DNA of 64,000 nucleotides from Thermoanaerobaculia bacterium (GCA_036522835.1 DATDFB010000057.1:3906-67905); one strand, 5' to 3'; shown: positions 4,789-56,715, counted from the first letter of the stretch. Made by a program: numbers and translations. The notes: generated by a model from the sequence alone, not told the origin.

Positions 4789-4804
4789 TCTGCATTCTGC
4801 ATTC
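4723..4804. repeat. palindromic element, family 1 ((GCAGAAT)n heptamer arms), copy 1
   Basis: gaatgcagaatgcaggatgcagaatgcagaaa ...loop... ttctgcattttgcattctgcattctgcattc; diverged relative of copies at 16334-16425 and 19818-19925. Confidence 0.7.
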
Positions 4805-5915
4805 ATTGCAGCAGCGCCTCCACCACCCCGCCCACCCAATCGTCGATCACCGGCGACGTTGCCAGATACGAGTAGAGTGCGTGGCGCTTCTGCTCCGACG
4901 GCGCGCTCGGGTTGCGCAGCACGCCCGCAGGATCGGGCATCAGGTCGACCACGACGTCGCGCGCGTCGCGCGGCGCCCAGTGCGAGGGCATGTCGCTGCC
5001 GAAGAGCTTCGACACGAGCGCAAGGCGGTCGCTTTCGCCGTGCGCGGCGCGCGCGGCGGCGGCGAGGCGGCCCTTCGAGCTCTCGATGAGCATGCGAAGA
5101 TTGGATAGCACCTGCAGCCGGCGCGTGCAGGCCTCGAGGATCTTGACGTCGGAGAGGGCCGTGCTGGCGGCGAGGATCTTCTGGATGCGGTCGGTCTCGA
5201 CGGAGATGAACGCGTCGGCCGGATCGTCGGCAGGGGGCGCCGGCTCGTCGACCTTCACCTCCGGCGTGGCCGGCGTGGCCACCGGCGCGGGCGGCATGGC
5301 CGGCGTCGGCACGATCTCGGCGAGCGGCAGATCGGAGATGGCCGGCGCATCGCCGATCTCGCTCTTCGGCATGCGCAGATCGGCCGGCTCGTTGGCGATC
5401 GCCGCCGGCGGCGGAGCGGGCGGCAGCGGCACGAGCTTCGCCGCACCGAACGGCGAGCCCGCCGGCGCGGCGGGGTCGCGCATCAAATCCGAATCCGTCG
5501 GCACTTCGGCGTCCATCAGCCGCTCGCGCACGCGCAGCCGCGTGTCGCCTGCCTGGCGCAGTTGAGCGTTGCGGGCCACGTCGTTGAGGTACGTCGCGCT
5601 CATGTCGCAGTGGCAGGGGCCGAAGTTGTCGGGCAGGTAGCGCTTGTCGTTGCGCTGGCGGTAGAAGTCGACGACCGCGGCGTTGTGGCGCATGGCCGCG
5701 TCGCGGGCGCGCTCGCAGGCGGCCTGCGAGGCGAACTGGTTGATGCCCGAAAACTCGTTGAAGCCGCGTAGTTCCGGGTTGTACATCTGCACGTGGTAGT
5801 GGAAGACGTCGCAGTGCGCCGGGGGCGTCGCAGAAGGCGGGCAGAGCAGCGCCTGCCCGAGGGCCGAGCCCGCCGTCACCGCCGCCACGAGAAAAACGCT
5901 TACGCGAAGCCGCAT
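4803..5915 (-). CDS. hypothetical secreted Pro/Ala-rich protein
   Basis: Start refined to MRLRVSVFLVAAVTAGSALGQA (signal peptide); Cys-rich N-domain, PAPPPAA.. linker, C-terminal domain. The 18 upstream residues of the track ORF are translation of repeat 5916-5975. Confidence 0.5.
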   Translation of the reverse strand: MRLRVSVFLVAAVTAGSALGQALLCPPSATPPAHCDVFHYHVQMYNPELRGFNEFSGINQFASQAACERARDAAMRHNAAVVDFYRQRNDKRYLPDNFGPCHCDMSATYLNDVARNAQLRQAGDTRLRVRERLMDAEVPTDSDLMRDPAAPAGSPFGAAKLVPLPPAPPPAAIANEPADLRMPKSEIGDAPAISDLPLAEIVPTPAMPPAPVATPATPEVKVDEPAPPADDPADAFISVETDRIQKILAASTALSDVKILEACTRRLQVLSNLRMLIESSKGRLAAAARAAHGESDRLALVSKLFGSDMPSHWAPRDARDVVVDLMPDPAGVLRNPSAPSEQKRHALYSYLATSPVIDDWVGGVVEALLQ

Positions 5916-5975
5916 GTGGAGCGCGCCGGCCATGCCGGCGCCGTAAGAGCGGCGGCATGGCCGCCGCACTCCACA
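5916..5975. repeat. double-hairpin GC-rich repeat, family 3 (TGTGGAG-[GCGCCGGCCATGCCGGCGC]-[GCGGCGGCATGGCCGCCGC]-CACTCCACA)
   Basis: Two internal hairpins inside outer inverted repeat; immediately 5' of start codon of 4803..5915. Confidence 0.65.
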
Positions 5976-6039
5976 GAATATACGACTTCAACACCGCGGC
6001 CCCTCTCGTCGTACCGCTGGCGACGAAAGGAGAACCTCC

Positions 6040-6511: not shown

Positions 6512-7153
6512 ATGGAACTGGCGGCTGTCAACGGAGCCCTGCTCCTCGATCGTCTAAGCTGGGTAGTGACGGCAGGATTCGAGACACTGCAACAGCCCGG
6601 CGACACCTTCGAGCAGCGCGCGATCGACGCGGTCAAACGCGGCGACGCATCGGCGTACGACTATCTCGTGTCAAAATACATGAAACGAGTGGTGTCGATC
6701 GCCTGGGGAATCGTGCGCAACGCGCACGACGCGGAAGACCTCGCGCAGGAGGCTTTCGTGAAGGCCTACCAGACCATCGGCCGCTTCAAGACGGGACAAC
6801 CTTTCGGTCCGTGGATCTATCGAATCGTGACGAACCTTTCATTGGACGTGGTCAAGCATCGCAAGCGCTTCCGCCACGAAGAGCTGCGCGACGTCGAGCC
6901 GGCGGCCCGCCGCGACGAGGCCGATCTGCCGGCGCGCGCGAACGAGCTGTCGGCGCGCATCGACGAGGCCATCGAGTCGCTGCCGGAGATGCAGCGCATC
7001 GTGGCCCGGCTCTACCTGGTCGAGGAGTTCAGCCACACCGAGATCGCGGAGATGACCAATCTGAGCGAGGGGACGGTGCGCTCGCACCTCTCCCTCGCGC
7101 GCGGAAAGCTCAAAGAGCGATTGAGCGATTTGTACGGAGAAGACCATGAGTGA
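6512..7153 (+). CDS. ECF sigma factor (sigma-24 family)
   Basis: Region 2 (DLAQEAFVKAYQTIGRF...FGPWIYRIVTNLSLDVVKHRK) and region 4 (LPEMQRIVARLYLVEEFSHTEIAEMTNLSEGTVRSHLSLARGKLKE). Confidence 0.85.
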   Translation: MELAAVNGALLLDRLSWVVTAGFETLQQPGDTFEQRAIDAVKRGDASAYDYLVSKYMKRVVSIAWGIVRNAHDAEDLAQEAFVKAYQTIGRFKTGQPFGPWIYRIVTNLSLDVVKHRKRFRHEELRDVEPAARRDEADLPARANELSARIDEAIESLPEMQRIVARLYLVEEFSHTEIAEMTNLSEGTVRSHLSLARGKLKERLSDLYGEDHE

Positions 7154-7854: not shown

Positions 7855-9077
7855 CGCGCTGAGTCCGGCCGCACGCGCAAAAAGAACGTGCAGGCCTTCC
7901 CCGTCTTCGACTCCACCCACACCGAGCCGGAGTGGGCCACGGCGAATTCGCGCACTTTGAAGAGGCCGCGGCCGGTGCGCTCGGCGGCGTTCGGGTTCCA
8001 GACGAACGACGGCTCGAAGATCGCCGCGCGCAGATCCTCGGGGACGACCGGGCCGTTGTCCATCACGAAGAACAGCAGCAGCGGACGCCCCTTGTGCTCC
8101 ATCCAGCGCACGCCGACGACGACCTGCCCGCCCGCCGGCACGTAGTGCAGCGAGTTGTCCATCAGAATGCCGAGGGTGTCGGCGAGCTGGTCGTGGTTGC
8201 GGAAGCGCTCTTCGAGATCGGGAACGTCGACCTGCAGGTGGATCCCTTTGAGATCGGCGAACTGCTGGAAGCGGTTGGCGACGGTATGCACGACGTCGAC
8301 GACTTTCGGGATGCGCGTCTCCGGCGCCGGCTCCTCGACCTCGGGGGCCATCTCCAGCGACGAGAGGACCTGATCGATCGTCCCGGCGGCGTCGTCGAGC
8401 AGCGGATCGCTGTTGCGCTTGCGCGACGCGGCGATCATGGAGTCGCGCAGGAAGCGCATCGGCATCAGCACGGTCTCGCGCACGAAGGCGACGAAGGAAG
8501 CGTGCGATTCGCTGGCCGAGTCCGCCGGACGGAAGACGAGCACCGCGCCGCTCGCGCCGCCGGAGAGCGGGACGAGCGAGTAGATGATGTTCTGGTTGCC
8601 GATGTGCAGCGCCGAGGTGGCCGGCACGGAAAGCTCGCCGATGTGCAGCCCCGCCAGCGCCTCGATCTGCTTGACCGTGCCGAGGTCCGACTGCGCGACG
8701 CCGAAGAGCTTCTTGGCCTGCGACGTGACGAACTTCACGCCGCGGTCGGGCCCGAGGACGATCGAGGCGACGCCGGCGGCGATCAGCACGTTGGCGACGC
8801 TGGTGATCGCCAGCGAAGCCGACTCGACGGGGAAGGGAACGACGGGGGCTTTCGGGAACGCATCGGGAGCCACCGCCGGCGCGGTCGCTTGCGCCGCCGA
8901 TCCCTCGCCTCGCGAGGCGGGGAGAGGGTGGCGCGAAGCGCCGGGGGAGGGGCCGACGTTCGGCACCGCGGTCGTACCGCTCTCCGTCTTCGCTTTCGGT
9001 TTCCGCGGCTTATCGCATTTCTCGCAGAGAATGCCTTCCGAGATCGCCGCGCCGCACATGAAGCACTTGGAGGCCAT
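7851..9077 (-). CDS. histidine-kinase-like ATPase (HATPase_c) protein with N-terminal zinc ribbon
   Basis: CFMCGAAISEGILCEKCDKP; hydrophobic segment; C-terminal N/G1/G2 boxes (ILMDNSLHY, VMDNGPVVPE, GRGLF); no canonical H-box recognised. Confidence 0.6.
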   Translation of the reverse strand: MASKCFMCGAAISEGILCEKCDKPRKPKAKTESGTTAVPNVGPSPGASRHPLPASRGEGSAAQATAPAVAPDAFPKAPVVPFPVESASLAITSVANVLIAAGVASIVLGPDRGVKFVTSQAKKLFGVAQSDLGTVKQIEALAGLHIGELSVPATSALHIGNQNIIYSLVPLSGGASGAVLVFRPADSASESHASFVAFVRETVLMPMRFLRDSMIAASRKRNSDPLLDDAAGTIDQVLSSLEMAPEVEEPAPETRIPKVVDVVHTVANRFQQFADLKGIHLQVDVPDLEERFRNHDQLADTLGILMDNSLHYVPAGGQVVVGVRWMEHKGRPLLLFFVMDNGPVVPEDLRAAIFEPSFVWNPNAAERTGRGLFKVREFAVAHSGSVWVESKTGKACTFFLRVRPDSAR

Positions 9078-11978: not shown

Positions 11979-13505
11979 TCAGCGGTTCGACGAGAGCCGG
12001 ATCGTTCCCTCTTCCGCGTACAGCTCGAGCCTCTCGCCGCCGCCGTTGATCTTGCCGGTGGCGTGCACCTTCGTCCTCCCGCCAACCTGCTCCTTGCGGA
12101 TCTGCAGGCCGTTGAAGTCGGAGACGATCGGGTCGGCGTCGGCATCCGCGGTGAAGACCGTGGCGTCGACCTCGGCGCCGAAGCGCGAGGTGAGGTTGAG
12201 GATCACGTTGCCGCGCGCGGTGCGGGCGGTGATGCGCTGCGTGCGCTGCGTCGGGTCGGAGGTAATGGTGATGTCGCCCGAGCGCGTGTCGGCGTCGATC
12301 GGGCCGGCAGCCTGGCGGACGATGATGTCGCCGCCGAGCGATCTGAGCGTGGTCGGACCGCCGGTGTACTGCACCTCGACGATGCCGCCGTCGGTCGTGA
12401 TCGTGCCGCCGACGCGCGCGGCGCGCACGAGGATGCGCCCCACGCCGGTGTGCGCGGTCAGCCCCGCCATGGCCTCGGTGATGCTGATCGGGCCGCCGAC
12501 CGACGTGGCGTTCAGCTCCCCGTAGACCGTGCCGAGCTCGATCGCCCCCGCGCCGGTGAAGACGCGCAGCGCGCCGCGCGCTTCGCCGACCTGGATGTCG
12601 GCAACGCGCTGGGAGATCTCCATCGGCCCCTGCACGGTGGGGATCTGCACGCGCATCATCTGCGGGACCGCCGCCATCGGATCGCCGATCGTGCGCACCA
12701 GATCGCGCACCGAGCGCGCCGTCGACCCGTTCTCGCCGTTGGCCAGGATGGCCACACGGCCGAGCATCGTCCCCGTCACCAGGCGCGGCCCGCCGGGCGC
12801 GTTCACGCTGCCGTGGAAGACGCGTCCTTCCCAACGGCCGCGCAGCGGCAGCGTGGTCCAGAGGTCGCCGCGCAACGTGTCGGCAATCCAGTCGAAGTTC
12901 GAATCGAGCGGGAGATGCACCTCGATGTTGGCGTTGATGGCGTTGATCTGCGCGTGCGACACCGGCTTGGTCGTGTAGTTGTAGACGATGCGGCCGTTGG
13001 TCGAATCGACGATGGACGCGCCGGTGACGTTGTCGAACACGATCGTGCTGCTGAAGGCCTTCACCGTCACGTTGCCCATGATGTTGGAGACGTGGACCTG
13101 GTCGGCGCTCGTGGTCAGCACGCGCACGTGCACGGTCTTCGGCACGCGCACCGTGTATTTGACGCTGCTGCTCCAGCGCGGGCTGCGCAGCGGCGGCACG
13201 ACCGTCTTCACCACGCACTGGTGGGGGTTGTTGCAGTCGAAGTTGATGCTCGTGTTCTCGCGGGCCTCGTCGCGCGACTGGCGGTCGACGGCGATGATCG
13301 TCGTCACCGCGCTGATCGTCGCCTTGGCGCCGTCGACGCCGAAGATCTCGATCGTGCCGTCGGGATTGTCGATCCAGAACGTGCCGGCGATTTCGAGCGG
13401 ATACGTCTTGGTGACCGGGCCCTCGACGTACACATGGTTCGCGGCGCTGAGCGGGAGCGCGAGAGTCAGGAGCGCGGCGGCGAGTAGAGGGACCTGTCTC
13501 ATCAC
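11979..13505 (-). CDS. secreted beta-rich protein, DUF4097/putative-adhesin-like
   Basis: Signal peptide MMRQVPLLAAALLTLALPLSA; repetitive G/T/V-rich beta segments; 4-nt overlap with upstream anti-sigma gene. Confidence 0.55.
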   Translation of the reverse strand: MMRQVPLLAAALLTLALPLSAANHVYVEGPVTKTYPLEIAGTFWIDNPDGTIEIFGVDGAKATISAVTTIIAVDRQSRDEARENTSINFDCNNPHQCVVKTVVPPLRSPRWSSSVKYTVRVPKTVHVRVLTTSADQVHVSNIMGNVTVKAFSSTIVFDNVTGASIVDSTNGRIVYNYTTKPVSHAQINAINANIEVHLPLDSNFDWIADTLRGDLWTTLPLRGRWEGRVFHGSVNAPGGPRLVTGTMLGRVAILANGENGSTARSVRDLVRTIGDPMAAVPQMMRVQIPTVQGPMEISQRVADIQVGEARGALRVFTGAGAIELGTVYGELNATSVGGPISITEAMAGLTAHTGVGRILVRAARVGGTITTDGGIVEVQYTGGPTTLRSLGGDIIVRQAAGPIDADTRSGDITITSDPTQRTQRITARTARGNVILNLTSRFGAEVDATVFTADADADPIVSDFNGLQIRKEQVGGRTKVHATGKINGGGERLELYAEEGTIRLSSNR

Positions 13506-14542
13506 GGTTTGACGCTGCCGAGCGCCTCCGCCGCTTTGACTCGGACGTACATGTTCTCGTCGTCCTGCGCAGCCTTGGCGCGCAGCGTGTCGAGCGTGGC
13601 CGGGTCGGCCTGGCCGCCCTTCTTGAGCAGATTCGAGAGGGCCTCTACGGCTTTGAGGCGCACGGCGGGATTGGGATCGGTCTTCAGCGCCTGGATCAGC
13701 GCCTCCCGCGAGTCGCTCGTCGCGCCGCCCGCGGGCAGATTCGTCAGCGTCTCCACGGCCTTGATGCGCACGCCCTCGTGCGTGTCGTTGCGGAGGACGT
13801 TGGCCAGGGCGCGGGTGATCTCCGGATCGGCGTTGCCGGGCTGCGAGTACGTCGAGCGCACCCAGTCGATGGCCCGCGACTGCGACGGGGCCATGCGGTC
13901 CTCGTTCTCAAGGACGTAGCGCATCAGCCGCACCATGGTCTTGTCGGTTGGACGGCCGGTGACGGTCATGTGCGAGGTGATGTCGAACGAGACGCCGATC
14001 TGGTCGTCCGGCGCATTGAGCTGCGTGAAGCTCACGTTTTGGATGTCGGGACGCCCTTCGATCACCGGGCTGATGGAGTTGGCCGGCAGCACGCGCGATT
14101 CGGCGATGGAGAACGCGGCCGGCTGGTACGGCGTTGCGCTCGTGATCTTCGCCTCGGTCGTCGTCTGCGTTGCCGGCTTGTCGAAAACCGTCGTCGACGA
14201 CGTCGTCGTGCGATGTCCCGCCAAGTACGACCCGCCCGCGATCACGACGACCGCGGCGGCCTGCGCAAGCCAGCGGAACGCTGGCCGGCGACGAAACGGG
14301 ACGACGTCCGCCGATTCGACGGGAGGGTTCACGCGGTTGAGGAACTCCTGCTTCATGCGCGGCGGGACTTCGAGCTCGGGCAGTTGCTCGAGGAAGCTCC
14401 ACGTCTCGCGGTAGCCCGTCCACTCCTCGCCGCACGCCGCGCACTGCTCGATGTGCTGGTGCGTGGTCTCTCGCCGCACCGGGTCGAGCGACTCGGTCAA
14501 GAGCAGCGGCATCTGTTCGCGCATCAGAGTGCAGTCAGACAT
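13502..14542 (-). CDS. zinc-finger anti-sigma factor with TM and C-terminal HEAT-like repeats
   Basis: N-terminal HxxxCxxC (HQHIEQCAACGEEW), TM (AAVVVIAGGSYLAG), C-terminal HEAT repeats (VRIKAVETLTNL, VRLKAVEALSNL, VRVKAAEALGSV); coupled to sigma gene upstream. Confidence 0.6.
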   Translation of the reverse strand: MSDCTLMREQMPLLLTESLDPVRRETTHQHIEQCAACGEEWTGYRETWSFLEQLPELEVPPRMKQEFLNRVNPPVESADVVPFRRRPAFRWLAQAAAVVVIAGGSYLAGHRTTTSSTTVFDKPATQTTTEAKITSATPYQPAAFSIAESRVLPANSISPVIEGRPDIQNVSFTQLNAPDDQIGVSFDITSHMTVTGRPTDKTMVRLMRYVLENEDRMAPSQSRAIDWVRSTYSQPGNADPEITRALANVLRNDTHEGVRIKAVETLTNLPAGGATSDSREALIQALKTDPNPAVRLKAVEALSNLLKKGGQADPATLDTLRAKAAQDDENMYVRVKAAEALGSVKP

Positions 14543-15135
14543 CGTTCACCTCCGCTCGCCTCGCCGGTGAGCGCTTTCTTCAACACTTCCATGGCCCGGA
14601 ACACGCGCGTCTTCACCGCCCCCTCCGAGCATCCTGCGATCTGCGCGATCTCCGCGTACGACAGCCCCTGGTAGCGCGAGAGCAGGATGGCTTCGCGCTG
14701 GTCCGGAGTCAGGAACTGCAGCGCTTTCTGGATCCTCAGTTGGTTCTCGCGCTGCTCGAGCCGGTGATGGGGCGACTCGGACTGGCTGGCCGGCAGCGTC
14801 ACCAGAGCATCGTCCGAGTCCTTCGGCTTGTTGTCCCCTTTGCGCAGGTAGTCGCGGCACCAATTGGCCGCGATGGAAAAGAGCCAGGTGGAGAGCTTTG
14901 CCTCTCCATTGAACTGGTTGGCGTGCTTGAGCATCTTGACAAAGACTTCCTGGGTCGCGTCTTCCGCTGCCTCGCTGTTCCGGAGGAAGCGGTAGGTGAA
15001 GTTGTAAATCCGGCCTGAATAACGGTCGTAGATCTCCGAGGCGGGGGAGAAGTCGCCCGCCTGAACGATGCGCATGAGCTCCTGATCGCTCAGGGACTTC
15101 ATCTCCCTCGGTTCTCTCTGCTTCGACGCGGACAT
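14524..15135 (-). CDS. ECF sigma factor
   Basis: Start chosen at MSASKQREPREMKSLSDQEL (avoids overlap with 15146..16309); region 2 (EDATQEVFVKMLKHANQF...STWLFSIAANWCRDYLRK) and region 4 (LTPDQREAILLSRYQGLSYAEIAQIAGCSEGAVKTRVFRA). Confidence 0.8.
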   Translation of the reverse strand: MSASKQREPREMKSLSDQELMRIVQAGDFSPASEIYDRYSGRIYNFTYRFLRNSEAAEDATQEVFVKMLKHANQFNGEAKLSTWLFSIAANWCRDYLRKGDNKPKDSDDALVTLPASQSESPHHRLEQRENQLRIQKALQFLTPDQREAILLSRYQGLSYAEIAQIAGCSEGAVKTRVFRAMEVLKKALTGEASGGERCLTAL

Positions 15136-15145
15136 GTCGGAAAGG

Positions 15146-16309
15146 TTACGGGCCGGCTGTTTGGAGTTGCGCAACAGCCGCCGGAGCGCCTTCATTGCGC
15201 TCGACCGAGGCGATCACCAGGGCGAAGAGGTCGAGCATGGCCAGAAAGACCTCGGTGTCGCCGAAGTTGAACTCGAACATCCCCGCGACGACGAGCCCGA
15301 CCGTAATGGCCACGCCGAGCTCGGCATATTTCGAGCCCCAGCCTCGGGCGCATTCCCTCAGAAAGAGCGCGATCAACACGACGTACGCGGCGAGCCCGAG
15401 AATGCCGCGCTCGGCCCAGAGCTGCACGAGGTTGTTGTGCAGGTGCGGGATGCGGAAGCGCGGCGCGTCGGGCTTGCGGTAGAGCGGATAGACCTCTTTC
15501 ATGTTGCCCGGGCCGACGCCGAGGACCGGAACGTCTTTGATGATCTCCACGCCGCCTTCGAACATGCGGATCCGGTCGAAGTTCGACGACTGCTTCGTGT
15601 CGAAGGCCGACAGGACCCGGGCGAAGTACGGCAGGGGGAGGAAAGTGATGACGAGGATGCCGGCCGGCACGGCCCAGGCAAGAAGGCGCGGCCGCTTCAG
15701 CGTGGCGAGCACGACGACGGCGACGAGCCAGCCGAGCCAGGCGCTGCGGGTGAAGGTCATGAGCAGCGTGAGCGTGGTCAGGATCGTGCCGCCCAGGAGC
15801 CAGAGGTTGCGGCGGTCGTGAATCCAGAGGACGAGGAAGATCAGCGCCACCGGCAGCATCAGCCCCGAATAGGTCATCACGTGCGCGGCCGGGCCGGTGA
15901 TGCGGTGCTCGAGATCGCGCTGGTGCAGTGCGAAATACTGCACAAAGCCGTAAAGCGAGGAGAAGACGCCGAAGGCGAGGAAGGTCTTCAGGGCCATCTC
16001 TTTGGTCCTCGGCACGTTCCTGAACAGGATGAGCGCGGCGGGAAAGAGCAGGCACTTCAACCACAGCGCGCTCTCGCCGAAGGCATGCTTCGACGCGCCG
16101 TTGGCGATGGAGGAGACCGAGGAGTCGAGCGCGTAGACGAAGAGCGGGAAGTAGAGGACGTGGAAGGAGGGTTTGATCTCGCCTTTCCAGATCAGCCAGG
16201 CGAGCGTGCCGATCATCAGAACGACGCCGAGCTCCGAGGAGGCGATCCAGCCGGCGCAGAAGATGTGGGCGAGGTAGAAGAAAGTCGCGAGTGCAACGCC
16301 GCGGGACAT
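15146..16309 (-). CDS. O-antigen ligase/polymerase family (Wzy_C-like) membrane protein
   Basis: 387 aa, ~10 TM, periplasmic loop with TFTRSAWLG motif region. Confidence 0.7.
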   Translation of the reverse strand: MSRGVALATFFYLAHIFCAGWIASSELGVVLMIGTLAWLIWKGEIKPSFHVLYFPLFVYALDSSVSSIANGASKHAFGESALWLKCLLFPAALILFRNVPRTKEMALKTFLAFGVFSSLYGFVQYFALHQRDLEHRITGPAAHVMTYSGLMLPVALIFLVLWIHDRRNLWLLGGTILTTLTLLMTFTRSAWLGWLVAVVVLATLKRPRLLAWAVPAGILVITFLPLPYFARVLSAFDTKQSSNFDRIRMFEGGVEIIKDVPVLGVGPGNMKEVYPLYRKPDAPRFRIPHLHNNLVQLWAERGILGLAAYVVLIALFLRECARGWGSKYAELGVAITVGLVVAGMFEFNFGDTEVFLAMLDLFALVIASVERNEGAPAAVAQLQTAGP

Positions 16310-16333
16310 GGCGCGTTACGCCCGCATACCACG

Positions 16334-16425
16334 GAAACTTAGAACGCAGAATGCGAATGCAGAATGAAGAAAGCTTCGCCGGCGATTTCTCAATTCTGCA
16401 TTCGCATTCTGCGTTCTGAATTTCC
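16334..16425. repeat. palindromic element, family 1, copy 2
   Basis: gaaacttagaacgcagaatgcgaatgcagaatgaagaaa ... tctcaattctgcattcgcattctgcgttctgaatttcc; near-identical to 19818-19925. Confidence 0.8.
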
Positions 16426-16446
16426 GTGGGCCGAAAGCAGGCGAGC

Positions 16447-16707
16447 TCACATCTCCTCGAATGCCTCGTCCACCAGCATCACCGGGATGTCACTGACGAT
16501 CGGGTAGATCCGGTGGCACTTGACGCACTGCAGGCCCTGCTCGACGACGGGCTCCTCGCCGCGGAACTTCTCCCGGAACTTGTCGCGCACGGCCGCGCTC
16601 CGCTCCGCCGACAGCGGCACCATGCGCACCTCTTCCTTGCACAGCGGGCAGGCGAGGATCTCGAGCAGTTCCGTGTCGATGGCCATGGGCGGCGCGAAGT
16701 GTAGCAT
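16447..16707 (-). CDS. Trm112 family (DUF343) small protein
   Basis: LLEILACPLCKEEV...LQCVKCHRIYPIVSDIPVMLVDEA. Confidence 0.75.
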   Translation of the reverse strand: MLHFAPPMAIDTELLEILACPLCKEEVRMVPLSAERSAAVRDKFREKFRGEEPVVEQGLQCVKCHRIYPIVSDIPVMLVDEAFEEM

Positions 16708-16717
16708 TCGCGGCGCA

Positions 16718-17776
16718 ATGCGAGTCCTGCACCTCGCCGCCGGAAACCGCTGGACCGGAGCCGCCGCGCCGGCGTTCGCCGAGGTGGCGGCGCTGCGCGA
16801 GGCGGGAGTCGATGCGCACTACGCCTACGTCGGCGGCTACAAGCTCGAGCAGAAGCTCGCCCACGTCGGCTTCGCCCACCCCGCGATCGCCAAGGCGCAG
16901 AATCCGCTGTCGTTCCTGCGCACAGCCACGAGGCTCGAGCACCTCATCGACCACCACGGCTTCGACGTCGTGCACGCGCACCTCACCTACGATCACGTGC
17001 TGGCGCGGTTCATCGCCAAGCGGGAGAAGGTGCGGATCGTGCGGACGTTCCACTCCCGGCGGGTGATCCGCGGCGACGTCTTCACGCGGGCGCTCGTCCG
17101 GCGCACCGACGCGATTTGCGTGATCAACGACGCGCTCGCCGAGGCGGCGCCGATCCGCGGCCGTTTCGCGCTCTACACACCGCCGCCGCTCGACACGCGG
17201 CAATTCACGCCCGAGGGGCCGGACTTGCGCGGGGCCTACGGCGTCGAGGGCGATGCGCTGCTCCTCGTCGCCATCGGCAAGCTCGATCCCGCGCGCGGCT
17301 TCGAGGACGTGCTGCGGACGTACGCACTGGTACGGCAGGCCATCGCCACGGCGCGGCTGATGATCATCGGCCACGGCCCGCACCGCCCGGCGCTCGAAGC
17401 GCTGGCGAGCTCGCTGCAAATCGAGCCGATCTGGGCCGGTTATCACGAGGACGATCTCGCCGAGCACTACCGCGCCGCCGACGTGCTGCTCTTCACCGCG
17501 CGCGGCTCCGACGAGGGCCACCGCGCCGTGATCGAGGCGATGGGCTGCGGCGTCGTGCCGGCGACGTATCGCCTCGACGGCATGCCCGCGATCCTCGGCG
17601 AGCTCGGCGCGGAGTCGCTGGCGGCGTCGCCGGCGCCGCAGGCGCTGGCCGAGCGCGTGATCGCCATCGCCCAAGGCGATCTCGCCGCATCGCGCCGCGC
17701 GGCGTTCGCACGGTCGGCGGAGTTTTCGTACGGGAAGGCCGCGGAGCGGCTGATGAAGCTGTACGAGTCGCTCTAA
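16718..17776 (+). CDS. glycosyltransferase family 4 (GT-B)
   Basis: Start refined to MRVLHLAAGNRWTGAA; C-terminal EG.. VIEAMGCGVVPA motif region; upstream 66 residues of track ORF are antisense to Trm112 gene. Confidence 0.8.
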   Translation: MRVLHLAAGNRWTGAAAPAFAEVAALREAGVDAHYAYVGGYKLEQKLAHVGFAHPAIAKAQNPLSFLRTATRLEHLIDHHGFDVVHAHLTYDHVLARFIAKREKVRIVRTFHSRRVIRGDVFTRALVRRTDAICVINDALAEAAPIRGRFALYTPPPLDTRQFTPEGPDLRGAYGVEGDALLLVAIGKLDPARGFEDVLRTYALVRQAIATARLMIIGHGPHRPALEALASSLQIEPIWAGYHEDDLAEHYRAADVLLFTARGSDEGHRAVIEAMGCGVVPATYRLDGMPAILGELGAESLAASPAPQALAERVIAIAQGDLAASRRAAFARSAEFSYGKAAERLMKLYESL

Positions 17777-41599: not shown

Positions 41600-42088
41600 A
41601 TGAAAATCCGTCCAGCCGAGGCGAAGGACCGCCCGCGCATCCGCGAGATCCTCGTTGCCACGGCGCGATTCACGGACGACGAGATCCGCGCCGCGGTCGA
41701 GCTCGTCGACCACTACCTCGACCATCCCGCCCGCTCCGAATACCTCACCTTCGTTCTCGAGTCGCCCGAGAGCGGCCCCAGCCGCCAGGTGCAGGGCTAC
41801 GTCACTTACGGCGCTACGCCGAAGACCGAGGGCGTGTTCGATCTCTACTGGATCGCCGTCGACCCGCGGCACCAGGGGCAGGGCTTCGGACAGCTTCTTC
41901 TACGCTTCGTAGAGAACGAAGTGCGCCGGCACCGAGGCAGAATGTTGCTCATCGAGACCTCGTCGAAGGAAAGTTATTCGTCGACGTTGCGCTTTTACCA
42001 ACGCAGCGGTTACGACGAGATCTCGCGAATTAAAGACTTCTACCGCATCGAGTGCGACAAAATCGTCTTCTGTAAGAAATTCGCATGA
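41600..42088 (+). CDS. GNAT family N-acetyltransferase
   Basis: 162 aa; HQGQGFGQLLL acetyl-CoA binding motif. Confidence 0.8.
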   Translation: MKIRPAEAKDRPRIREILVATARFTDDEIRAAVELVDHYLDHPARSEYLTFVLESPESGPSRQVQGYVTYGATPKTEGVFDLYWIAVDPRHQGQGFGQLLLRFVENEVRRHRGRMLLIETSSKESYSSTLRFYQRSGYDEISRIKDFYRIECDKIVFCKKFA

Positions 42089-42873
42089 GCCCGAACCTGA
42101 CCCTTTACGCCGCACTCGGCCTCTACGCCGCCGGCACGCTGATGGCCTTGGCGTCGCTGTTCGGGCGGCGTTTGCAGACGCCGGCGCTGGTGCTGATGCT
42201 GGCCGGGTTCGTCAGCCACACGGTCTGGATCGGGACGATTTGCGTGCGCACGCACCACCCGCCGCTCACGAACCTGCCGGAGATCGCGGCGTTCCTGTCG
42301 TGGACGGTGTTCGTCGTGGAGCTGGTGCTGCTGTTCAAGTACCGCGTGCACGCGGCGTCGTTCTTCGTCTACCCGCTCGTGCTGATGCTCCTGACCGTCT
42401 CGGCCGTCGTGCACGAGCCGTTCGCGCTGGCCGGCCCGACGGCGCAGTCGAAGCTCTTCACGACGCACATCCTCCTCTCGACGGTCGGCGTGGCCGCACT
42501 GCTCATCGGCGTCGCGTTCAATGCGCTGGCCTGGATGCAAGACCGGTCGCTCAAGTCGAAGCACCGCGGGCGGACGTGGGAGTGGATCCCGAGCCTCAAC
42601 GTCTGCAAGACGCTGAGTTACCGGGCGCTGGCCGTCGGCTTCAGCATCTACACGCTCGGGATTCTGACGGGGATTCTCTGGTCCTACCGCACGACTTCGG
42701 AGCTGCTCGACCTGCGCGTCAAGCAGGTCGGCGCGATCGTGGCGTGGGTGCTCTTCGCAACGCTCCTGCAGTCGTACGTCAGCGGCGCGTATCGCGCGCG
42801 GAGGGCCATGGTGATCTCGGCCTGCGCGCTCGTGGCGGTGCTCGTGGCCATTTTGGGGATCCGGCATGTCTGA
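42085..42873 (+). CDS. CcsA-like cytochrome c assembly / HemX-like membrane protein
   Basis: 8 TM, W-rich segment; positioned immediately upstream of hemA as in hemAXCD operons. Confidence 0.65.
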   Translation: MSPNLTLYAALGLYAAGTLMALASLFGRRLQTPALVLMLAGFVSHTVWIGTICVRTHHPPLTNLPEIAAFLSWTVFVVELVLLFKYRVHAASFFVYPLVLMLLTVSAVVHEPFALAGPTAQSKLFTTHILLSTVGVAALLIGVAFNALAWMQDRSLKSKHRGRTWEWIPSLNVCKTLSYRALAVGFSIYTLGILTGILWSYRTTSELLDLRVKQVGAIVAWVLFATLLQSYVSGAYRARRAMVISACALVAVLVAILGIRHV

Positions 42874-43079
42874 GCAGAACGCTCGCACTCTGCCAACGCT
42901 CGGGAGAACGACCGGGAGGCCTCCGGCGGGCGGGCACGGCCCGCAGCGTTTGTTGGCGCGCAAATCATGTTTCCTGCGAAACCCGTACGTTCGGCCGGAG
43001 GCAACCAGCGCTGCGGGCCGCGCCCGCCCGCCGGAGGCCCTTCGTCGTCCCCTGCGTTGGCAGAGTGCGAGCGTTCTGC
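42874..43079. promoter_or_regulatory. 206-nt nested perfect-stem hairpin element filling the hemX-hemA gap
   Basis: Outer 26-bp arms gcagaacgctcgcactctgccaacgc / gcgttggcagagtgcgagcgttctgc; inner arms gggaggcctccggcgggcgggc / gcccgcccgccggaggccc; third stem cggcccgcagcg / cgctgcgggccg. Confidence 0.6.
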
Positions 43080-43092
43080 ACGGGAGGGCGAC

Positions 43093-44355
43093 ATGGCCCT
43101 GATCGCCATCGGCCTCAACCACCGCACTGCCCCCGTGGACGTGCGCGAGCGGCTCAGCGTGGCCGAGTCGAAGCTGCCGGAGTTGATCGCGAGCCTCACG
43201 GCCATGAGCGGCGTCGACGGCGGCGCCATCGTCTCGACCTGCAACCGCGTCGAGACCTACGTCTCCGCCTCGAGCGAAGACATCATCGAAGCGGTCGTCG
43301 ACTGGCTCGCCGAGCGCGCCGGCGCCGACCGGGCCGAGATCGAGAAGCACCTCTACATCCTTCGCCACGGCGACGTGGTCAAGCACCTCTTCCGCGTGGC
43401 CGCGGGGCTCGACTCGATGATTGTCGGCGAGCCGCAGATCCACGGCCAGGTGCGCGCGGCGTTCCTGGAGTCGCAGCGCTGCGGCGCGCTCGACGCACTG
43501 CTGATGCACGTCTTCGAGCAGACCATGCGCGTGGCCAAGAAGATCCGCACCGACACCGGCATCGGCGAGCACGCCGTCTCCGTGCCGTACGCCGCGGTGG
43601 AGCTGGCGAAGAAGATCTTCGGCGAGCTCGACGGCCTGCAGGCGCTGCTCCTCGGCGCGGGCGACATCGGCGAGCTAACGGCGGAGCACCTCGCGGGCTC
43701 GGGTGTGCGCCAGATCTTCGTGGCCAACCGCGCCTACGAGCGCGGCGTGCAGCTCGCCGAGCGCTTCGGCGGCGCGGCCATCCAGTTCAGCGCTGTCGAG
43801 CCGTACCTGGCCACGTGCGACATCGTCATCGCCTCGACCGCAGCGCCGCACTTCGTCATCGAGCGCGGCCAGGTCGCGCGCGCGCTGGAGTCGCGGAAGA
43901 TGAAGAACCTCTTCCTCATCGACCTGAGCGTGCCGCGCAACATCGACCCGGCCATCGCCAAGGTCGAGGGCGCCTATCTCTACAACATCGACGACCTCCA
44001 GCTCGTGGCCGAGTCGAACCGCGAGCTGCGCATGAAGAAGGCCCAGCAGGCGGAGGAGATCGTGGCGCGCGAGGTGGAGTCGTTCCGCCGCCGCATCGCC
44101 GCCATGGACGCGGTGCCGACGATCGTCGAGCTGCAGCAGCGCCTCGAGGAGATCCGCGCCACGGAGCTGGAACGGTGCCTCCGCCGCGTCGGCCCGATCA
44201 CCGCCGAGCAGCGCGAGGCCATCGAGATGATGACCACGCAGATGGTCAACAAGATCCTCCACTACCCGATCCTCCAGCTCAAGGAAGCCGACGAGCCGCA
44301 GGAGCAGCGCGAGTCGCTCCGCAAGACGATTCGAAAGATCTTCGGGCTGCGATGA
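43093..44355 (+). CDS. hemA: glutamyl-tRNA reductase
   Basis: MALIAIGLNHRTAPVDVRERL ... CNRVE ... 420 aa. Confidence 0.92.
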   Translation: MALIAIGLNHRTAPVDVRERLSVAESKLPELIASLTAMSGVDGGAIVSTCNRVETYVSASSEDIIEAVVDWLAERAGADRAEIEKHLYILRHGDVVKHLFRVAAGLDSMIVGEPQIHGQVRAAFLESQRCGALDALLMHVFEQTMRVAKKIRTDTGIGEHAVSVPYAAVELAKKIFGELDGLQALLLGAGDIGELTAEHLAGSGVRQIFVANRAYERGVQLAERFGGAAIQFSAVEPYLATCDIVIASTAAPHFVIERGQVARALESRKMKNLFLIDLSVPRNIDPAIAKVEGAYLYNIDDLQLVAESNRELRMKKAQQAEEIVAREVESFRRRIAAMDAVPTIVELQQRLEEIRATELERCLRRVGPITAEQREAIEMMTTQMVNKILHYPILQLKEADEPQEQRESLRKTIRKIFGLR

Positions 44356-45356
44356 GCGAGACAATCCGCATCGGCACGCGCGGCAGCCAACTCGCGCTCT
44401 GGCAAGCCAACGAAGTGTCGAACCGGCTCAGCGAAATCGGCTACCGGCCGGAGATCGCGGTCATCAAGACGACGGGCGACAAGCGCACCGACGTGCCGCT
44501 GTCGTCGGTCGGCGGCAAGGGCCTCTTCATCAAGGAGCTCGAGGAGGCGCTGGCGCGGCGCGAGATCGATGTGGCCGTGCACTCGCTCAAGGACGTGCCG
44601 TCGCTCGTCCCCGAGCCGTTCGTGCTGGCCGGCTTCCTCGAGCGCGCCGACGCCCGCGACGCCTGGGTGCAGCTCGACGGCACGCGCATCGAGGAGCTGG
44701 CTGCAGGCGCGGTCGTCGGCACGAGCGCGCCGCGGCGGCGCGCGCAACTGCGGCTGCTCTTTCCGTCGCTCACGCTCGAGGAGATGCGCGGCAACGTCGA
44801 CACGCGCATCAATAAACTGCGCGCCGGCTTGTACGACGGCGCGGTGCTGGCGTCGGCCGGACTCATTCGACTCGGCCGTTCCAGCGAGATCACCGCGCAG
44901 TTCGACGTCGACCAGATGGTGCCGGCCGCGGGGCAGGGCATCGTCACGATCGAGTGCAACAAAGACGACGATCGCGCGCGCCAGGCCGCCGCGGCGATCA
45001 ACCACCATCCCAGCGAGGCCGCGGCGCGCGCCGAGCGCGGCGTGCTGCAGAAGTTCGGCGAGGCGCTCGACTGCTACTCCGCCGTGGCCGTGCATGCGAC
45101 GTGGGCCCGTGTCATTCCGCGTCGCGAAGACGGCGAGGAGTCCCGTGCACACGACGACGGCGATGCTCCGTCGGCAGGAGATCCTTCGCCGTCTTCGCGG
45201 CTCGGGATGACACGTCTCAAGATCCGCGCGTTCTTCGGCGAGCTCGAAGGCGAGCGCCATTTGCACGTCACGCGCGAAGGCGACGAGGCCGACGCCGTCG
45301 TGCAGCAAGTCTTCGACGAGCTCGTCGACCGCGGAGCCATGGAGCTGCTCAAGTGA
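44352..45356 (+). CDS. hemC: hydroxymethylbilane synthase (porphobilinogen deaminase), with in-frame repeat insertion
   Basis: IRIGTRGSQLALWQA; 334 aa, ~35 aa longer than typical HemC because of insertion 45111-45213; ATGA-coupled to hemA. Confidence 0.9.
   Translation: MSETIRIGTRGSQLALWQANEVSNRLSEIGYRPEIAVIKTTGDKRTDVPLSSVGGKGLFIKELEEALARREIDVAVHSLKDVPSLVPEPFVLAGFLERADARDAWVQLDGTRIEELAAGAVVGTSAPRRRAQLRLLFPSLTLEEMRGNVDTRINKLRAGLYDGAVLASAGLIRLGRSSEITAQFDVDQMVPAAGQGIVTIECNKDDDRARQAAAAINHHPSEAAARAERGVLQKFGEALDCYSAVAVHATWARVIPRREDGEESRAHDDGDAPSAGDPSPSSRLGMTRLKIRAFFGELEGERHLHVTREGDEADAVVQQVFDELVDRGAMELLK
45111..45213. repeat. family 2 palindromic element, copy C, in frame inside hemC
   Basis: gtcattccgcgtcgcgaagacggcgaggagtccc...ggagatccttcgccgtcttcgcggctcgggatgacac encodes VIPRREDGEESRAHDDGDAPSAGDPSPSSRLGMT. 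Confidence 0.8.
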
Positions 45357-56435: not shown

Positions 56436-56715
56436 TAAGTTGTTAGGTTCGCAGGTTGTTACGTTCTTCACCGATCGAAGAGCGCACGCTTCCGATCGAA
56501 GAACGAACGCTTCAATCGGAATCGTGCGCTCTTCGATTTTAATCGTACGCTCTTCGATCTTTATCGCGCGCTCTTCGATCTTTATCGCGCGCTCTTCGAT
56601 CGGAATCGCGCGCTCTTCGATCGGAATGGCGCACTCTTCGATCGGAATCGTGCGTTCTTCGGTTGCAAGCGTGCGTTCTTCGAAAACAACCTAAGAACTC
56701 AACAACTTAACAACC
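56436..56715. repeat. composite element: ~30-bp terminal inverted repeats flanking two inverted + eight direct 21-bp repeats (CGCGCTCTTCGATCNNAATCG)
   Basis: Direct units at 56525, 56546, 56567, 56588, 56609, 56630, 56651, 56672; inverted units at 56471 and 56489; every unit has TTCGATC. TIRs ttaagttgttaggttcgcaggttgtt / aacaacctaagaactcaacaacttaa. Confidence 0.8.

What the first reader, a model, noticed from the sequence alone, without database searches (positions are those of the whole stretch)
42874..43079. A 206-nt nested triple-stem hairpin fills the entire hemX-hemA intergenic gap
Perfect 26-bp outer stem (gcagaacgctcgcactctgccaacgc), ~20-bp middle stem (gggaggcctccggcgggcgggc) and 12-bp inner stem (cggcccgcagcg) surround a ~60-nt loop. 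It starts 1 nt after the hemX-like stop and ends 13 nt before the hemA ATG. Such an extended structure is either a MITE with long TIRs or a cis-regulatory RNA (attenuator or processing site) controlling hemA expression within the hemXACD transcript.
Basis: seen in the sequence. Interest (0 to 1): 0.5.

Follow-up and report, generated by a model that had tools for sequence, protein, structure and literature searches.

The report
Mobile palindromic repeat between hemX and hemA
The 206-base hairpin between hemX and hemA is real, but it is a recently inserted copy of a selfish palindromic repeat scattered through the genomes of soil Thermoanaerobaculia, not a conserved RNA switch for haem synthesis.

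Summary
Window 42874-43079 is a near-perfect 206-nt palindrome with a perfect 26-bp outer stem. It folds far better than shuffles on both strands. It starts right after the hemX-like stop and ends 13 nt before the hemA ATG.

The regulatory interpretation is not supported. Relatives with 87-88% identical HemA have no spacer: the two genes are 9 nt apart or overlap. A 93% relative carries a different repeat at the same junction. Only a 95% relative shares this element.

The inner 154 nt (42902-43055) belong to a repeat family. Its 26-nt arm motif occurs in at least 120 metagenome stretches from Thermoanaerobaculia, often several per contig, in ~153-nt and ~120-nt size classes. The outer stem is part of a rarer ~206-nt long form found at four other loci.

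Copies have no target-site duplication and no orientation bias relative to neighbouring genes. They lie mostly between convergent genes, abut stop codons, and leave solo arms. A close relative has a copy where the window has an empty site.

Best reading: a non-autonomous REPIN/MITE-like element. Any effect on hemX/hemA expression is incidental and untested. This is a new family of a known kind, of modest interest.

The parts
42085..42873 (+). hemX-like gene (CcsA/CcsB-type cytochrome c assembly family membrane protein, 262 aa). Its TGA stop (42871-42873) directly abuts the element.
   Evidence: PF01578 Cytochrom_C_asm in the gene table. TIGR03144 ccsB scores 82.7 bits, below its cutoff. The last codons read CAT GTC TGA here and in L004, but CAT GCG TGA / CAT GCT TAG in relatives without the element.
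42874..43079 (.). The whole 206-nt long-form palindromic repeat element. This is the hairpin of the finding.
   Evidence: Fold z-scores are -12.9 (+ strand) and -11.5 (- strand). The element is present in L001 and L004 and absent in L008 and L009. It aligns end to end with long-form copies at four other loci, with compensatory changes in 11 pairs.
42874..42899 (+). Left outer arm (26 nt, GCAGAACGCTCGCACTCTGCCAACGC). It is the terminal extension specific to the long-form subfamily.
   Evidence: It is an exact inverted copy of 43054-43079. The motif GCRGAACGSNYGC has 14 matches in 1.07 Mb, and 10 of them lie directly outside a core copy.
43054..43079 (-). Right outer arm (26 nt), the perfect complement of the left outer arm.
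42902..43055 (+). Family core (~154 nt, long-loop class). It comprises two ~50-nt inverted arms and the centre.
   Evidence: A profile HMM was built from 76 metagenome copies, with the window and L004 excluded. It hits 42904-43053 on the + strand with E = 1.1e-34 and 116 bits, against 80 bits on the - strand.
42923..42948 (+). Left invariant arm module CCGGCGGGCGGGCACGGCCCGCAGCG. It contains its own short hairpin, GCGGGC-ACG-GCCCGC.
   Evidence: The pattern has at least 120 metagenome stretches. Coordinated four-position changes in two copies preserve both the local and the long-range pairing.
43009..43034 (-). Right invariant arm module, 86 nt start-to-start from the left one.
   Evidence: The spacing classes are 85-86 nt (24 copies) and 51-53 nt (26 copies). 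The window falls in the 86-nt class.
42950..43004 (+). It is homologous to the conserved long-loop consensus TTTGTCTTCGCGTAAATCGCG..GTTCAGGCTAGGCCAAC and gives the element its orientation.
   Evidence: Alignment A5. The HMM strand preference is 116 against 80 bits. Small internal hairpins covary, for example GGCTAGGCC against GCCTATGGC in 44 and 24 copies.
43082..43088 (+). Shine-Dalgarno GGGAGGG of hemA. It lies outside the hairpin, and a similar purine-rich Shine-Dalgarno-like sequence sits at this position in two relatives that lack this element.
   Evidence: Sequence. L006 has CGGAGGTG and L008 has TGAGGTGA before the ATG.
43093..44355 (+). hemA (glutamyl-tRNA reductase, 420 aa).
   Evidence: TIGR01035, E = 6.4e-131. 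It is 100% identical to a protein named from a Thermoanaerobaculia MAG.

Best explanation
The hairpin is one copy of a non-autonomous, palindromic mobile repeat family of Thermoanaerobaculia (Acidobacteriota).

Anatomy (shown):
- Two ~50-nt inverted arms, each ending in a pyrimidine, 6-7 purines and CGAC.
- Each arm carries an almost invariant 26-nt module with its own short hairpin.
- The arms flank a conserved asymmetric centre of ~55 nt. In a deletion-like subfamily the centre is ~25 nt.
- The window copy is a rarer long form with an extra 26-28-nt terminal extension on each side. That extension is the 'outer stem'.

History (shown): the element inserted into the originally spacer-less hemX-hemA junction in the common ancestor of this strain and its 95% relative. 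It therefore created the gap that it 'fills'.

Mobility mechanism (inferred): the element has no target-site duplication, its arms are kept complementary by compensatory changes, and solo arms are left as remnants. I infer that it moves as a single-stranded hairpin handled by a trans-acting enzyme, as REPINs are by RAYT (HUH/Y1) transposases. No such enzyme was found.

Effect on the operon (inferred, untested): the element is co-transcribed and would form a very stable stem immediately after the hemX stop codon and 2 nt before the hemA Shine-Dalgarno. It probably replaces translational coupling with independent initiation. It could also serve as an RNase III or stability determinant, as Correia and ERIC elements do. 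This would be a by-product, not an evolved haem or iron sensor.
For: Presence and absence across relatives:
- The spacer is 219 nt in the window, L001 and L004 (95% HemA).
- It is 156 nt of unrelated sequence in L006 (93%).
- It is 9 nt in L008 (88%), and the genes overlap in L009 (87%).

Family membership:
There are up to 4 copies per locus.
- In total there are 123 paired copies and 26 solo arms in 868 kb.
- A family HMM built without the window hits 42904-43053 at E = 1e-34.
- The one copy-rich host contig tested (L102, by its MetRS) is Thermoanaerobaculia.

Long form: homologous outer arms flank cores at L011, L047, L060, L068 and L120. 11 pairs keep pairing through double changes.

Mobility:
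- L096 is ~90% identical to window 12691-22205. It carries a 163-nt copy exactly where the window has an empty site (17776|17777).
- The same locus carries a short copy (L015), a long copy (L070) or a half copy (L110) in different genomes.

Other properties:
- No target-site duplication above control in 116 copies, nor at the filled/empty site in L096.
- Gene context: 37 convergent, 21 tandem (11 in one orientation, 10 in the other) and 5 divergent.
- G:T-type (231) and A:C-type (214) arm mismatches are balanced, so neither strand is favoured.
- Local arm hairpins are kept by four coordinated changes.
- In 92 of 123 flanks, the stop codon of a gene reading into the element lies within -12 to +8 nt of its end. 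The genome is so compact that convergent genes overlap (gene table).
- No Rfam match.
Against: - No transposase was linked to the family. Ten ORFs bracketed by copies are ordinary genes, plus one unrelated IS481-like element that had inserted into a copy. A crude HUH...YxxNP motif scan of 1.07 Mb found nothing.
- Only one copy is present in the 64-kb window. The outer-arm pattern is single-locus in the species-representative MAG. The copy number in this particular genome is therefore unknown.
- The arms (~50 nt) and the strongly conserved asymmetric centre are larger and more conserved than in described REPINs. That leaves room for a host-level or RNA-level function of the family.
- Between the window and L004, the 12 differences are more structure-preserving than chance would give: 2 compensated pairs, 3 G.U wobbles on the mRNA strand and 1 mismatch. 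This could reflect selection on the transcribed hairpin at this locus.
Confidence: 0.88

Rival explanations
1. A dedicated cis-regulatory RNA (attenuator, riboswitch-like sensor or programmed processing site) evolved to control hemA within the hemX-hemA-hemC-hemD transcript.
For: - It lies exactly between two co-oriented genes of one pathway, 2 nt from the hemA Shine-Dalgarno.
- The fold is extremely stable.
- The differences between the window and L004 mostly preserve pairing on the mRNA strand: 2 compensated pairs and 3 G.U wobbles.
Against: - It is absent from relatives with 87-88% identical HemA, where the genes abut or overlap. A different repeat takes its place in a 93% relative.
- The same sequence occurs at least 120 times next to unrelated genes, mostly between convergent genes and in either orientation.
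- It folds equally well on the antisense strand.
- No U-tract follows the stem, and there is no Rfam match.
Confidence: 0.03
2. A classical MITE: an internally deleted derivative of a DDE-transposase insertion sequence, mobilised in trans through its terminal inverted repeats in the manner of Correia/CREE elements.
For: - It has long terminal inverted repeats, a size of 120-206 nt and many copies.
- It has two size classes related by an internal deletion (~153 and ~120 nt). This is much like CREE at 153-157 and 104-108 bp (PMC2649163).
Against: - Flanking direct repeats are no more frequent than in shuffled flank pairs.
- They are absent at the filled/empty site in L096.
- No IS with matching ends was found in 1.07 Mb. 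The only transposase next to a copy has its own unrelated ends and a 6-bp duplication inside the copy.
- A 1-2-nt duplication could not be excluded.
Confidence: 0.2
3. The family has been co-opted by the host as a gene-end structural element: a bidirectional terminator or insulator between convergent genes, or an mRNA 3'-end stabiliser. The hemX-hemA copy would then act as an intra-operon processing or stability site that sets the hemX:hemA ratio.
For: - 59% of copies sit between convergent genes, and stop codons abut the element ends.
- The genome otherwise has no room for terminators.
- The arms are almost invariant across hosts whose housekeeping proteins (HemA, MetRS) are only ~73-75% identical to their nearest named Thermoanaerobaculia homologues.
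- Each arm contains a GC hairpin followed by GTTTGTT.
Against: - The distribution is also what purifying selection against gene disruption gives for any selfish repeat in a compact genome.
- Copies are gained, halved and lost between close relatives.
- There is no orientation bias in tandem contexts.
- A terminator inside the hem operon would be harmful unless it is leaky.
Confidence: 0.2
4. Assembly artefact: a chimeric palindrome created by the assembler.
For: Three assemblies break inside the element.
Against: The full element is assembled identically or near-identically in independent JGI and NCBI assemblies. Over a hundred homologous copies exist in other contigs.
Confidence: 0.01

Closest known systems
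REPINs (REP doublets forming hairpins) mobilised by RAYT transposases, Pseudomonas/Enterobacteria (Bertels & Rainey 2011, PMC3116915; Bertels et al. 2017, PMC5581495)
   Same: - Two highly conserved modules lie in inverted orientation at a fixed spacing, separated by a less constrained spacer.
- The whole element forms a long hairpin.
- Compensatory changes keep the pairing.
- It is extragenic, with many copies.
- Solo modules occur as defunct remnants.
- No target duplication.
- The family is shared by Thermoanaerobaculia hosts with quite divergent housekeeping proteins.
   Different: - The arms (~50 nt, up to ~78 nt in the long form) and the total length (120-206 nt) are larger.
- The centre is strongly conserved and asymmetric.
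- No GTAG-type 5' tetranucleotide was recognised.
- No RAYT gene was found.
- The host is an uncultured class of Acidobacteriota, and I found no description of such repeats for it in the held literature.
Correia repeat enclosed elements (CREE/NEMIS) of Neisseria (PMC2649163)
   Same: - There are two size classes differing by an internal segment (153-157 / 104-108 bp against ~153 / ~120 nt here).
- Inverted-repeat ends surround a directional core.
- Insertion polymorphism occurs between close strains.
- When transcribed, the hairpin is a substrate for RNase III. This is a plausible consequence for the hemX-hemA copy.
   Different: - CREE duplicate a TA target; no duplication is seen here.
- CREE ends can create promoters. 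No sigma-70-like promoter is detected in or around this element.
- There is no sequence similarity.
   Same: Long imperfect palindromes inserted in transcribed intergenic regions, including inside operons. There the RNA hairpin changes the stability of flanking cistrons.
   Different: A different host and sequence. The expression effect is experimentally shown for ERIC but not for this family.
Rickettsia palindromic elements (RPE); relevant to the neighbouring hemC insertion; comparison from my own knowledge
   Same: Palindromic repeats that insert in frame into protein-coding genes and are translated as extra peptide segments.
   Different: The hemX-hemA element itself is intergenic. The hemC insert belongs to another repeat family of the same genome.

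Membership tests
Thermoanaerobaculia palindromic repeat family (defined here) | Significant match to a profile built from independent copies | tested here: met
   An HMM built from 76 metagenome copies (window and L004 excluded) hits window 42904-43053 with E = 1.1e-34 and 116 bits.
Thermoanaerobaculia palindromic repeat family (defined here) | Two invariant 26-nt modules in inverted orientation at 85-86 or 51-53 nt start-to-start | tested here: met
   Window modules lie at 42923-42948 (+) and 43009-43034 (-), spaced 86 nt.
Thermoanaerobaculia palindromic repeat family (defined here) | Multiple copies in the same genome as the window | not testable with these tools
   Only 64 kb of this genome is available, and it holds one copy. 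A ~90%-identical relative (L096) has a copy at another locus.
REPIN / REP-RAYT system | REP doublet: two conserved modules in inverted orientation with a spacer, forming a hairpin, with compensatory changes | tested here: met
   The definition is taken from PMC3116915.
REPIN / REP-RAYT system | Each module is itself a short palindrome (REP) | tested here: met
   The module contains the hairpin GCGGGC-NCG-GCCCGC. Two copies carry G->C and C->G at both stem positions in both arms.
REPIN / REP-RAYT system | A single-copy RAYT (Y1/HUH transposase, PF01797) gene flanked by the repeats | tested here: inconclusive
   None was found among 10 ORFs bracketed by copies. A crude motif scan of 1.07 Mb of six-frame translations gave no hit. 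No complete genome could be scanned.
REPIN / REP-RAYT system | Extragenic, many copies, solo modules as remnants, no target duplication | tested here: met
   123 doublets and 26 solo arms. No target-site duplication. Copies lie at gene ends.
Classical MITE (DDE IS-derived, e.g. Correia/CREE) | Terminal inverted repeats | tested here: met
Classical MITE (DDE IS-derived, e.g. Correia/CREE) | Target-site duplication flanking each copy | tested here: not met
   Direct repeats of 3 nt or more are no more frequent than in shuffled flank pairs. None is seen at the filled/empty pair in L096. A 1-2-nt duplication is not excluded.
Classical MITE (DDE IS-derived, e.g. Correia/CREE) | A parent IS sharing the terminal repeats | tested here: inconclusive
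   None was found in 1.07 Mb. The IS481-like element in L048 has unrelated ends and interrupts a copy.
hemA-specific cis-regulatory RNA (attenuator, riboswitch or leader) | Conserved at the orthologous position in related genomes | tested here: not met
   It is absent in L008 and L009, and an unrelated repeat occupies the position in L006.
hemA-specific cis-regulatory RNA (attenuator, riboswitch or leader) | Strand-specific structure or a match to a curated RNA family | tested here: not met
   Both strands fold equally well. Rfam gives no hit at gathering score and only sub-threshold miRNA hairpin noise. The family shows no orientation bias and no G:U asymmetry.
Intrinsic (Rho-independent) terminator | GC-rich stem immediately followed by a U-tract | tested here: not met
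   The hairpin is followed by ACGGGAGGGCGAC. The only terminator-like hit is a 6-bp sub-hairpin inside the left arm.

The most novel reading that the evidence does not exclude
The family could be a long-lived REPIN-like population in Acidobacteriota, a phylum for which I found no such system described. It would be vertically maintained by an unidentified domesticated enzyme and exploited by these ultra-compact genomes as the only hairpin-forming gene-end signal. Its ends supply stop codons when it lands on overlapping gene termini. At hemX-hemA it would act as an RNase III or ribosome-stalling site that decouples and re-balances the two cistrons.
Probability: 0.15. Interest if true: 0.55.

Novelty: new member of a known kind. 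Interest (0 to 1): 0.3.

Why it matters
For annotation, this prevents a false 'haem riboregulator' call. It also gives a profile-ready definition of a repeat family that breaks assemblies of soil Thermoanaerobaculia MAGs and can mislead ORF calling. For example, there is an in-frame ATG at 42967 inside the element.

Biologically, it shows that these very compact genomes are colonised by several palindromic repeat families. These families insert precisely at gene ends, inside operons and even in frame inside hemC, and they turn over between strains that are 90-95% identical.

If a cognate enzyme is found, the family would extend REPIN-RAYT-type systems to Acidobacteriota. The expression consequences for the hem operon are testable but are probably incidental.

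Tried and rejected
- Rfam, whole window at gathering score and the element at E <= 10: nothing, apart from sub-threshold miRNA hairpin models.
- Second copy in the window or in five hem loci, by blastn and by HMM: none.
- Outer-arm pattern in 185,579 species genomes: only the orthologous locus of the 95% relative.
- Target-site duplication: none above control.
- 'The core inserted into a pre-existing independent palindrome': rejected for this copy, because the outer-arm motif is found almost only next to cores. A few other copies do have unrelated flanking inverted repeats (L017, L123, L028/L038), and these remain unexplained.
- Orientation bias and G:U asymmetry as signs of an RNA function: none. 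My first k-mer orientation call was unreliable for the window and was replaced by alignment and HMM.
- Parent transposase: ORFs bracketed by copies are housekeeping genes. The one transposase found is an unrelated IS481-like insertion into a copy. The RAYT motif regex found nothing.
- Promoter supplied by the element: no sigma-70-like site.
- Viral contigs and plasmids: no match.
- My early note that the left arm of L004 has 'uncompensated' changes was wrong for RNA. Most of the changes are wobble-compatible or compensated.

Full report
**1. Observation**

The sequence at 42874-43079 is as described.
- The 26-mer GCAGAACGCTCGCACTCTGCCAACGC occurs once on each strand, at the two ends of the interval, and nowhere else in the window. 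None is expected by chance.
- Inverted-repeat detection gives 59-nt arms (78% complementary) and inner 38-nt arms (92% complementary).
- As RNA, 42860-43100 folds to -181 kcal/mol (z = -12.9). The reverse complement folds to -178 kcal/mol (z = -11.5). As single-stranded DNA the 206 nt give z = -15.4.
- It is therefore a DNA palindrome, not a strand-specific fold.
- It begins at the first base after the TGA of a Cytochrom_C_asm (HemX/CcsA-like) ORF. It ends 13 nt before the ATG of hemA (TIGR01035, E = 6e-131). A GGGAGGG Shine-Dalgarno lies in between.
- hemC and a fused TP_methylase/HEM4 gene follow on the same strand.
- The element is present in independent assemblies. Three other assemblies stop inside it.

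**2. Organism and orthologous junctions**

HemA is identical to a protein named from a Thermoanaerobaculia MAG, and all named homologues are Thermoanaerobaculia or Acidobacteriota. I fetched syntenic loci from a graded series of relatives and aligned the junctions.

| Locus | HemA identity | hemX-hemA junction |
|---|---|---|
| L004 | 95% | same 206-nt element, 94% identical |
| L006 | 93% | 156 nt of unrelated sequence |
| L008 | 88% | 9 nt between stop and start |
| L009 | 87% | the genes overlap |

- The L006 spacer is itself a member of another repeat family. It has copies in L044, L021, L082, L119 and at window 8902-8953.
- The ancestral state is therefore a tightly coupled gene pair without a spacer.
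- The hairpin is a recent insertion that created the gap it fills. A different repeat has hit the same junction independently.

**3. A repeat family**

- No second copy exists in the window.
- The outer-arm pattern is found in only one of 185,579 species genomes, at the orthologous locus.
- In the 868 kb fetched there are 123 paired copies (116 distinct) and 26 solo arms. They fall into two classes: ~153 nt with a conserved ~60-nt centre, and ~120 nt with a ~26-nt centre that looks like an internal deletion.
- A profile built from 76 long copies, without the window, hits 42904-43053 at E = 1e-34. It scores 36 bits better on the + strand, which orients the copy.
- The MetRS of a copy-rich contig is again Thermoanaerobaculia.
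- There are no matches in viral contigs or plasmids.

**4. The outer stem**

- In most copies the family ends at a pyrimidine followed by 6-7 purines and CGAC. The flanks show no inverted repeat.
- The motif GCRGAACGSNYGC occurs 14 times in 1.07 Mb, and ten of these are immediately outside a core: the window, L004, both ends of L011, L047, L060, L068 and L120.
- Six such long-form copies from five loci align end to end. Eleven pairs, mostly in the outer stem, keep pairing through changes on both sides.
- The whole 206-nt hairpin is therefore a long-form member of the family, not a core inserted into an unrelated palindrome.
- About 11% of copies have some flank complementarity, against 0.5% in controls. 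A few of these (L017, L123, L028/L038) have outer repeats of unrelated sequence, which I cannot explain.

**5. Behaviour of the family**

- Mobility, first case. L096 is ~90% identical to window 12691-22205. It has a 163-nt copy exactly between two convergent genes whose stop codons overlap in the window (empty site 17776|17777). There is no duplication, and the element end CTGAGCAGAACG gives one gene a new TGA.
- Mobility, second case. One locus carries a short copy (L015), a long copy (L070) or only a right arm (L110) in different genomes. L035 and L106 show a full copy against a half copy.
- No target-site duplication above shuffled-pair controls.
- Context: 37 convergent, 21 tandem (11 against 10 by orientation) and 5 divergent.
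- Arm mismatches are balanced between G:T-type (231) and A:C-type (214), so neither strand is favoured.
- Stop codons of genes reading into a copy end within -12 to +8 nt of its boundary in 92 of 123 flanks.
- The gene table shows convergent genes overlapping or 3 nt apart. 'Filling the entire gap' is therefore the rule for this family in these compact genomes.
- Each arm contains its own hairpin, GCGGGC-NCG-GCCCGC. The variable N is a loop base. Two copies changed both stem positions in both arms.
- One copy (L048) is interrupted by an IS481-like element with its own ends and a 6-bp duplication, so that IS is a guest and not the parent.

**6. Mechanism**

Shown: the element is a member of a dispersed, polymorphic palindromic repeat family that recently inserted at hemX-hemA.

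Inferred, mobility:
- The architecture is two inverted conserved modules, each a small palindrome, at fixed spacing. It has compensatory maintenance of the hairpin, solo remnants and no duplication.
- This matches REPINs as defined by Bertels & Rainey (PMC3116915), which RAYT transposases mobilise (PMC5581495).
- I could not find a RAYT, but no complete genome could be scanned.

Inferred, expression:
- The two size classes and the transcribed-hairpin consequences resemble Correia elements. Those are RNase III substrates, but they duplicate TA (PMC2649163).
- The element must be transcribed with the operon, since the ancestral genes were coupled.
- Its stem starts at the stop codon of hemX and ends 2 nt before the hemA Shine-Dalgarno, which stays free.
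- The likely effects are loss of translational coupling and possible RNase III cleavage or altered stability.
- A hairpin this close to a stop codon may impede the terminating ribosome. REP sequences within ~15 nt of stop codons are reported to do this in E. coli (my own recollection; I could not retrieve the paper).
- No promoter-like site and no U-tract terminator are associated with the hairpin.

**7. What speaks for a local function**

- The window and L004 differ at 12 of 206 positions: two compensated pairs, three G.U wobbles on the mRNA strand, one mismatch, and two changes that lengthen the stem in L004. Both versions fold equally well.
- This is more structure-preserving than chance. 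However, the same is seen between paralogous copies, and it is also seen in REPINs, where it is ascribed to the needs of the element itself.
- L004's variant left arm resembles the arms of other copies (L060, L047), so exchange between copies is an alternative source.

**8. Verdict**

The MITE-like alternative is supported, with the qualification that the element looks REPIN-like rather than IS-derived. The dedicated hemA regulator is not supported. I found no description of such repeats in Thermoanaerobaculia or Acidobacteriota in the held literature. It is a new family of a known kind.

Noticed in passing
window 45108-45214 (inside hemC, 44352-45356): A 107-nt palindrome of a different repeat family sits inside hemC. 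It is read through in frame as a 34-aa insert (RVIPRREDGEESRAHDDGDAPSAGDPSPSSRLGMTR region), about 10 residues after the conserved Cys. HemC is 334 aa here and in L001-L003, but 300 aa in L004, L006, L008 and L009. The insertion is therefore strain-specific and resembles Rickettsia RPE.
   Followed up: yes
window 18397-18483 and 2324-2361; also L100, L074, L009: Further copies or arms of the 'hemC-insert' repeat family (GTCATTCCGCG...GAAGACGGCGAGGAGTCC). The ~87-nt copy at 18397-18483 is absent from the ~90%-identical relative L096, another insertion polymorphism.
   Followed up: partly
window 16329-16429, 19814-19928, 4723-4804: AT-richer palindromic elements built on GCAGAATGC/GAATGCAGAA motifs. 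The first two are copies of one ~100-115-nt element (82% identical). Related copies occur in L096, L123, L124 and L068.
   Followed up: partly
window 56471-56683: An array of direct and inverted ~21-nt units (CGATCGAAGAGCGCACGCTTC-like). No copy was found in the fetched loci.
   Followed up: no
L006 9845-10000 (hemX-hemA spacer of the 93% relative); window 8902-8953: The same gene junction is occupied in L006 by a member of a third palindromic repeat family (..CCTCACCC..CTCTCCCCGCACGCGGGGCGAGGG..). Partial copies occur in L044, L021, L082, L119 and in the window.
   Followed up: partly
window 17776|17777 vs L096 4920-5082: An empty site in the window for the hemX-hemA-type family. In the window two convergent genes share overlapping stop codons (CTAA). 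L096 has a 163-nt copy there, without duplication, and the element end supplies a new TGA to one gene.
   Followed up: yes
L048 5121-6424: An IS481-like element (HTH_32 + rve + rve_3, 385 aa) with ~45-nt terminal inverted repeats is inserted into the right arm of a family copy. It has a 6-bp duplication, CGCCCG.
   Followed up: yes
L015 3783-3903, L070 8727-8880, L110 ~990-1015: One orthologous convergent-gene junction carries a short-loop copy, a long-loop copy or only a right arm in three metagenome genomes. This implies replacement, conversion or repeated insertion at the same site.
   Followed up: partly
L017 ~640-845, L123 ~6840-7040, L028 ~2400-2600, L038 ~5790-5980: Some core copies are flanked by 15-25-bp inverted repeats whose sequence is unrelated to the long-form outer arm (for example GATCTGGAGGCGCTTTCCGCCCTCC). 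Their origin is unexplained.
   Followed up: no
window 42967-43092: An ATG inside the element is in frame with hemA and would add 42 codons; the ORF listing reports 42967..44355. This is probably spurious, but it could mislead gene callers. Several database HemA homologues are 446-454 aa instead of ~420.
   Followed up: no
L001 gene table (same genome as the window): The genome is extremely compact. Convergent genes overlap by 7-19 nt or are 3 nt apart, and many co-directional genes overlap by 4 nt. There is therefore almost no native intergenic DNA.
   Followed up: partly
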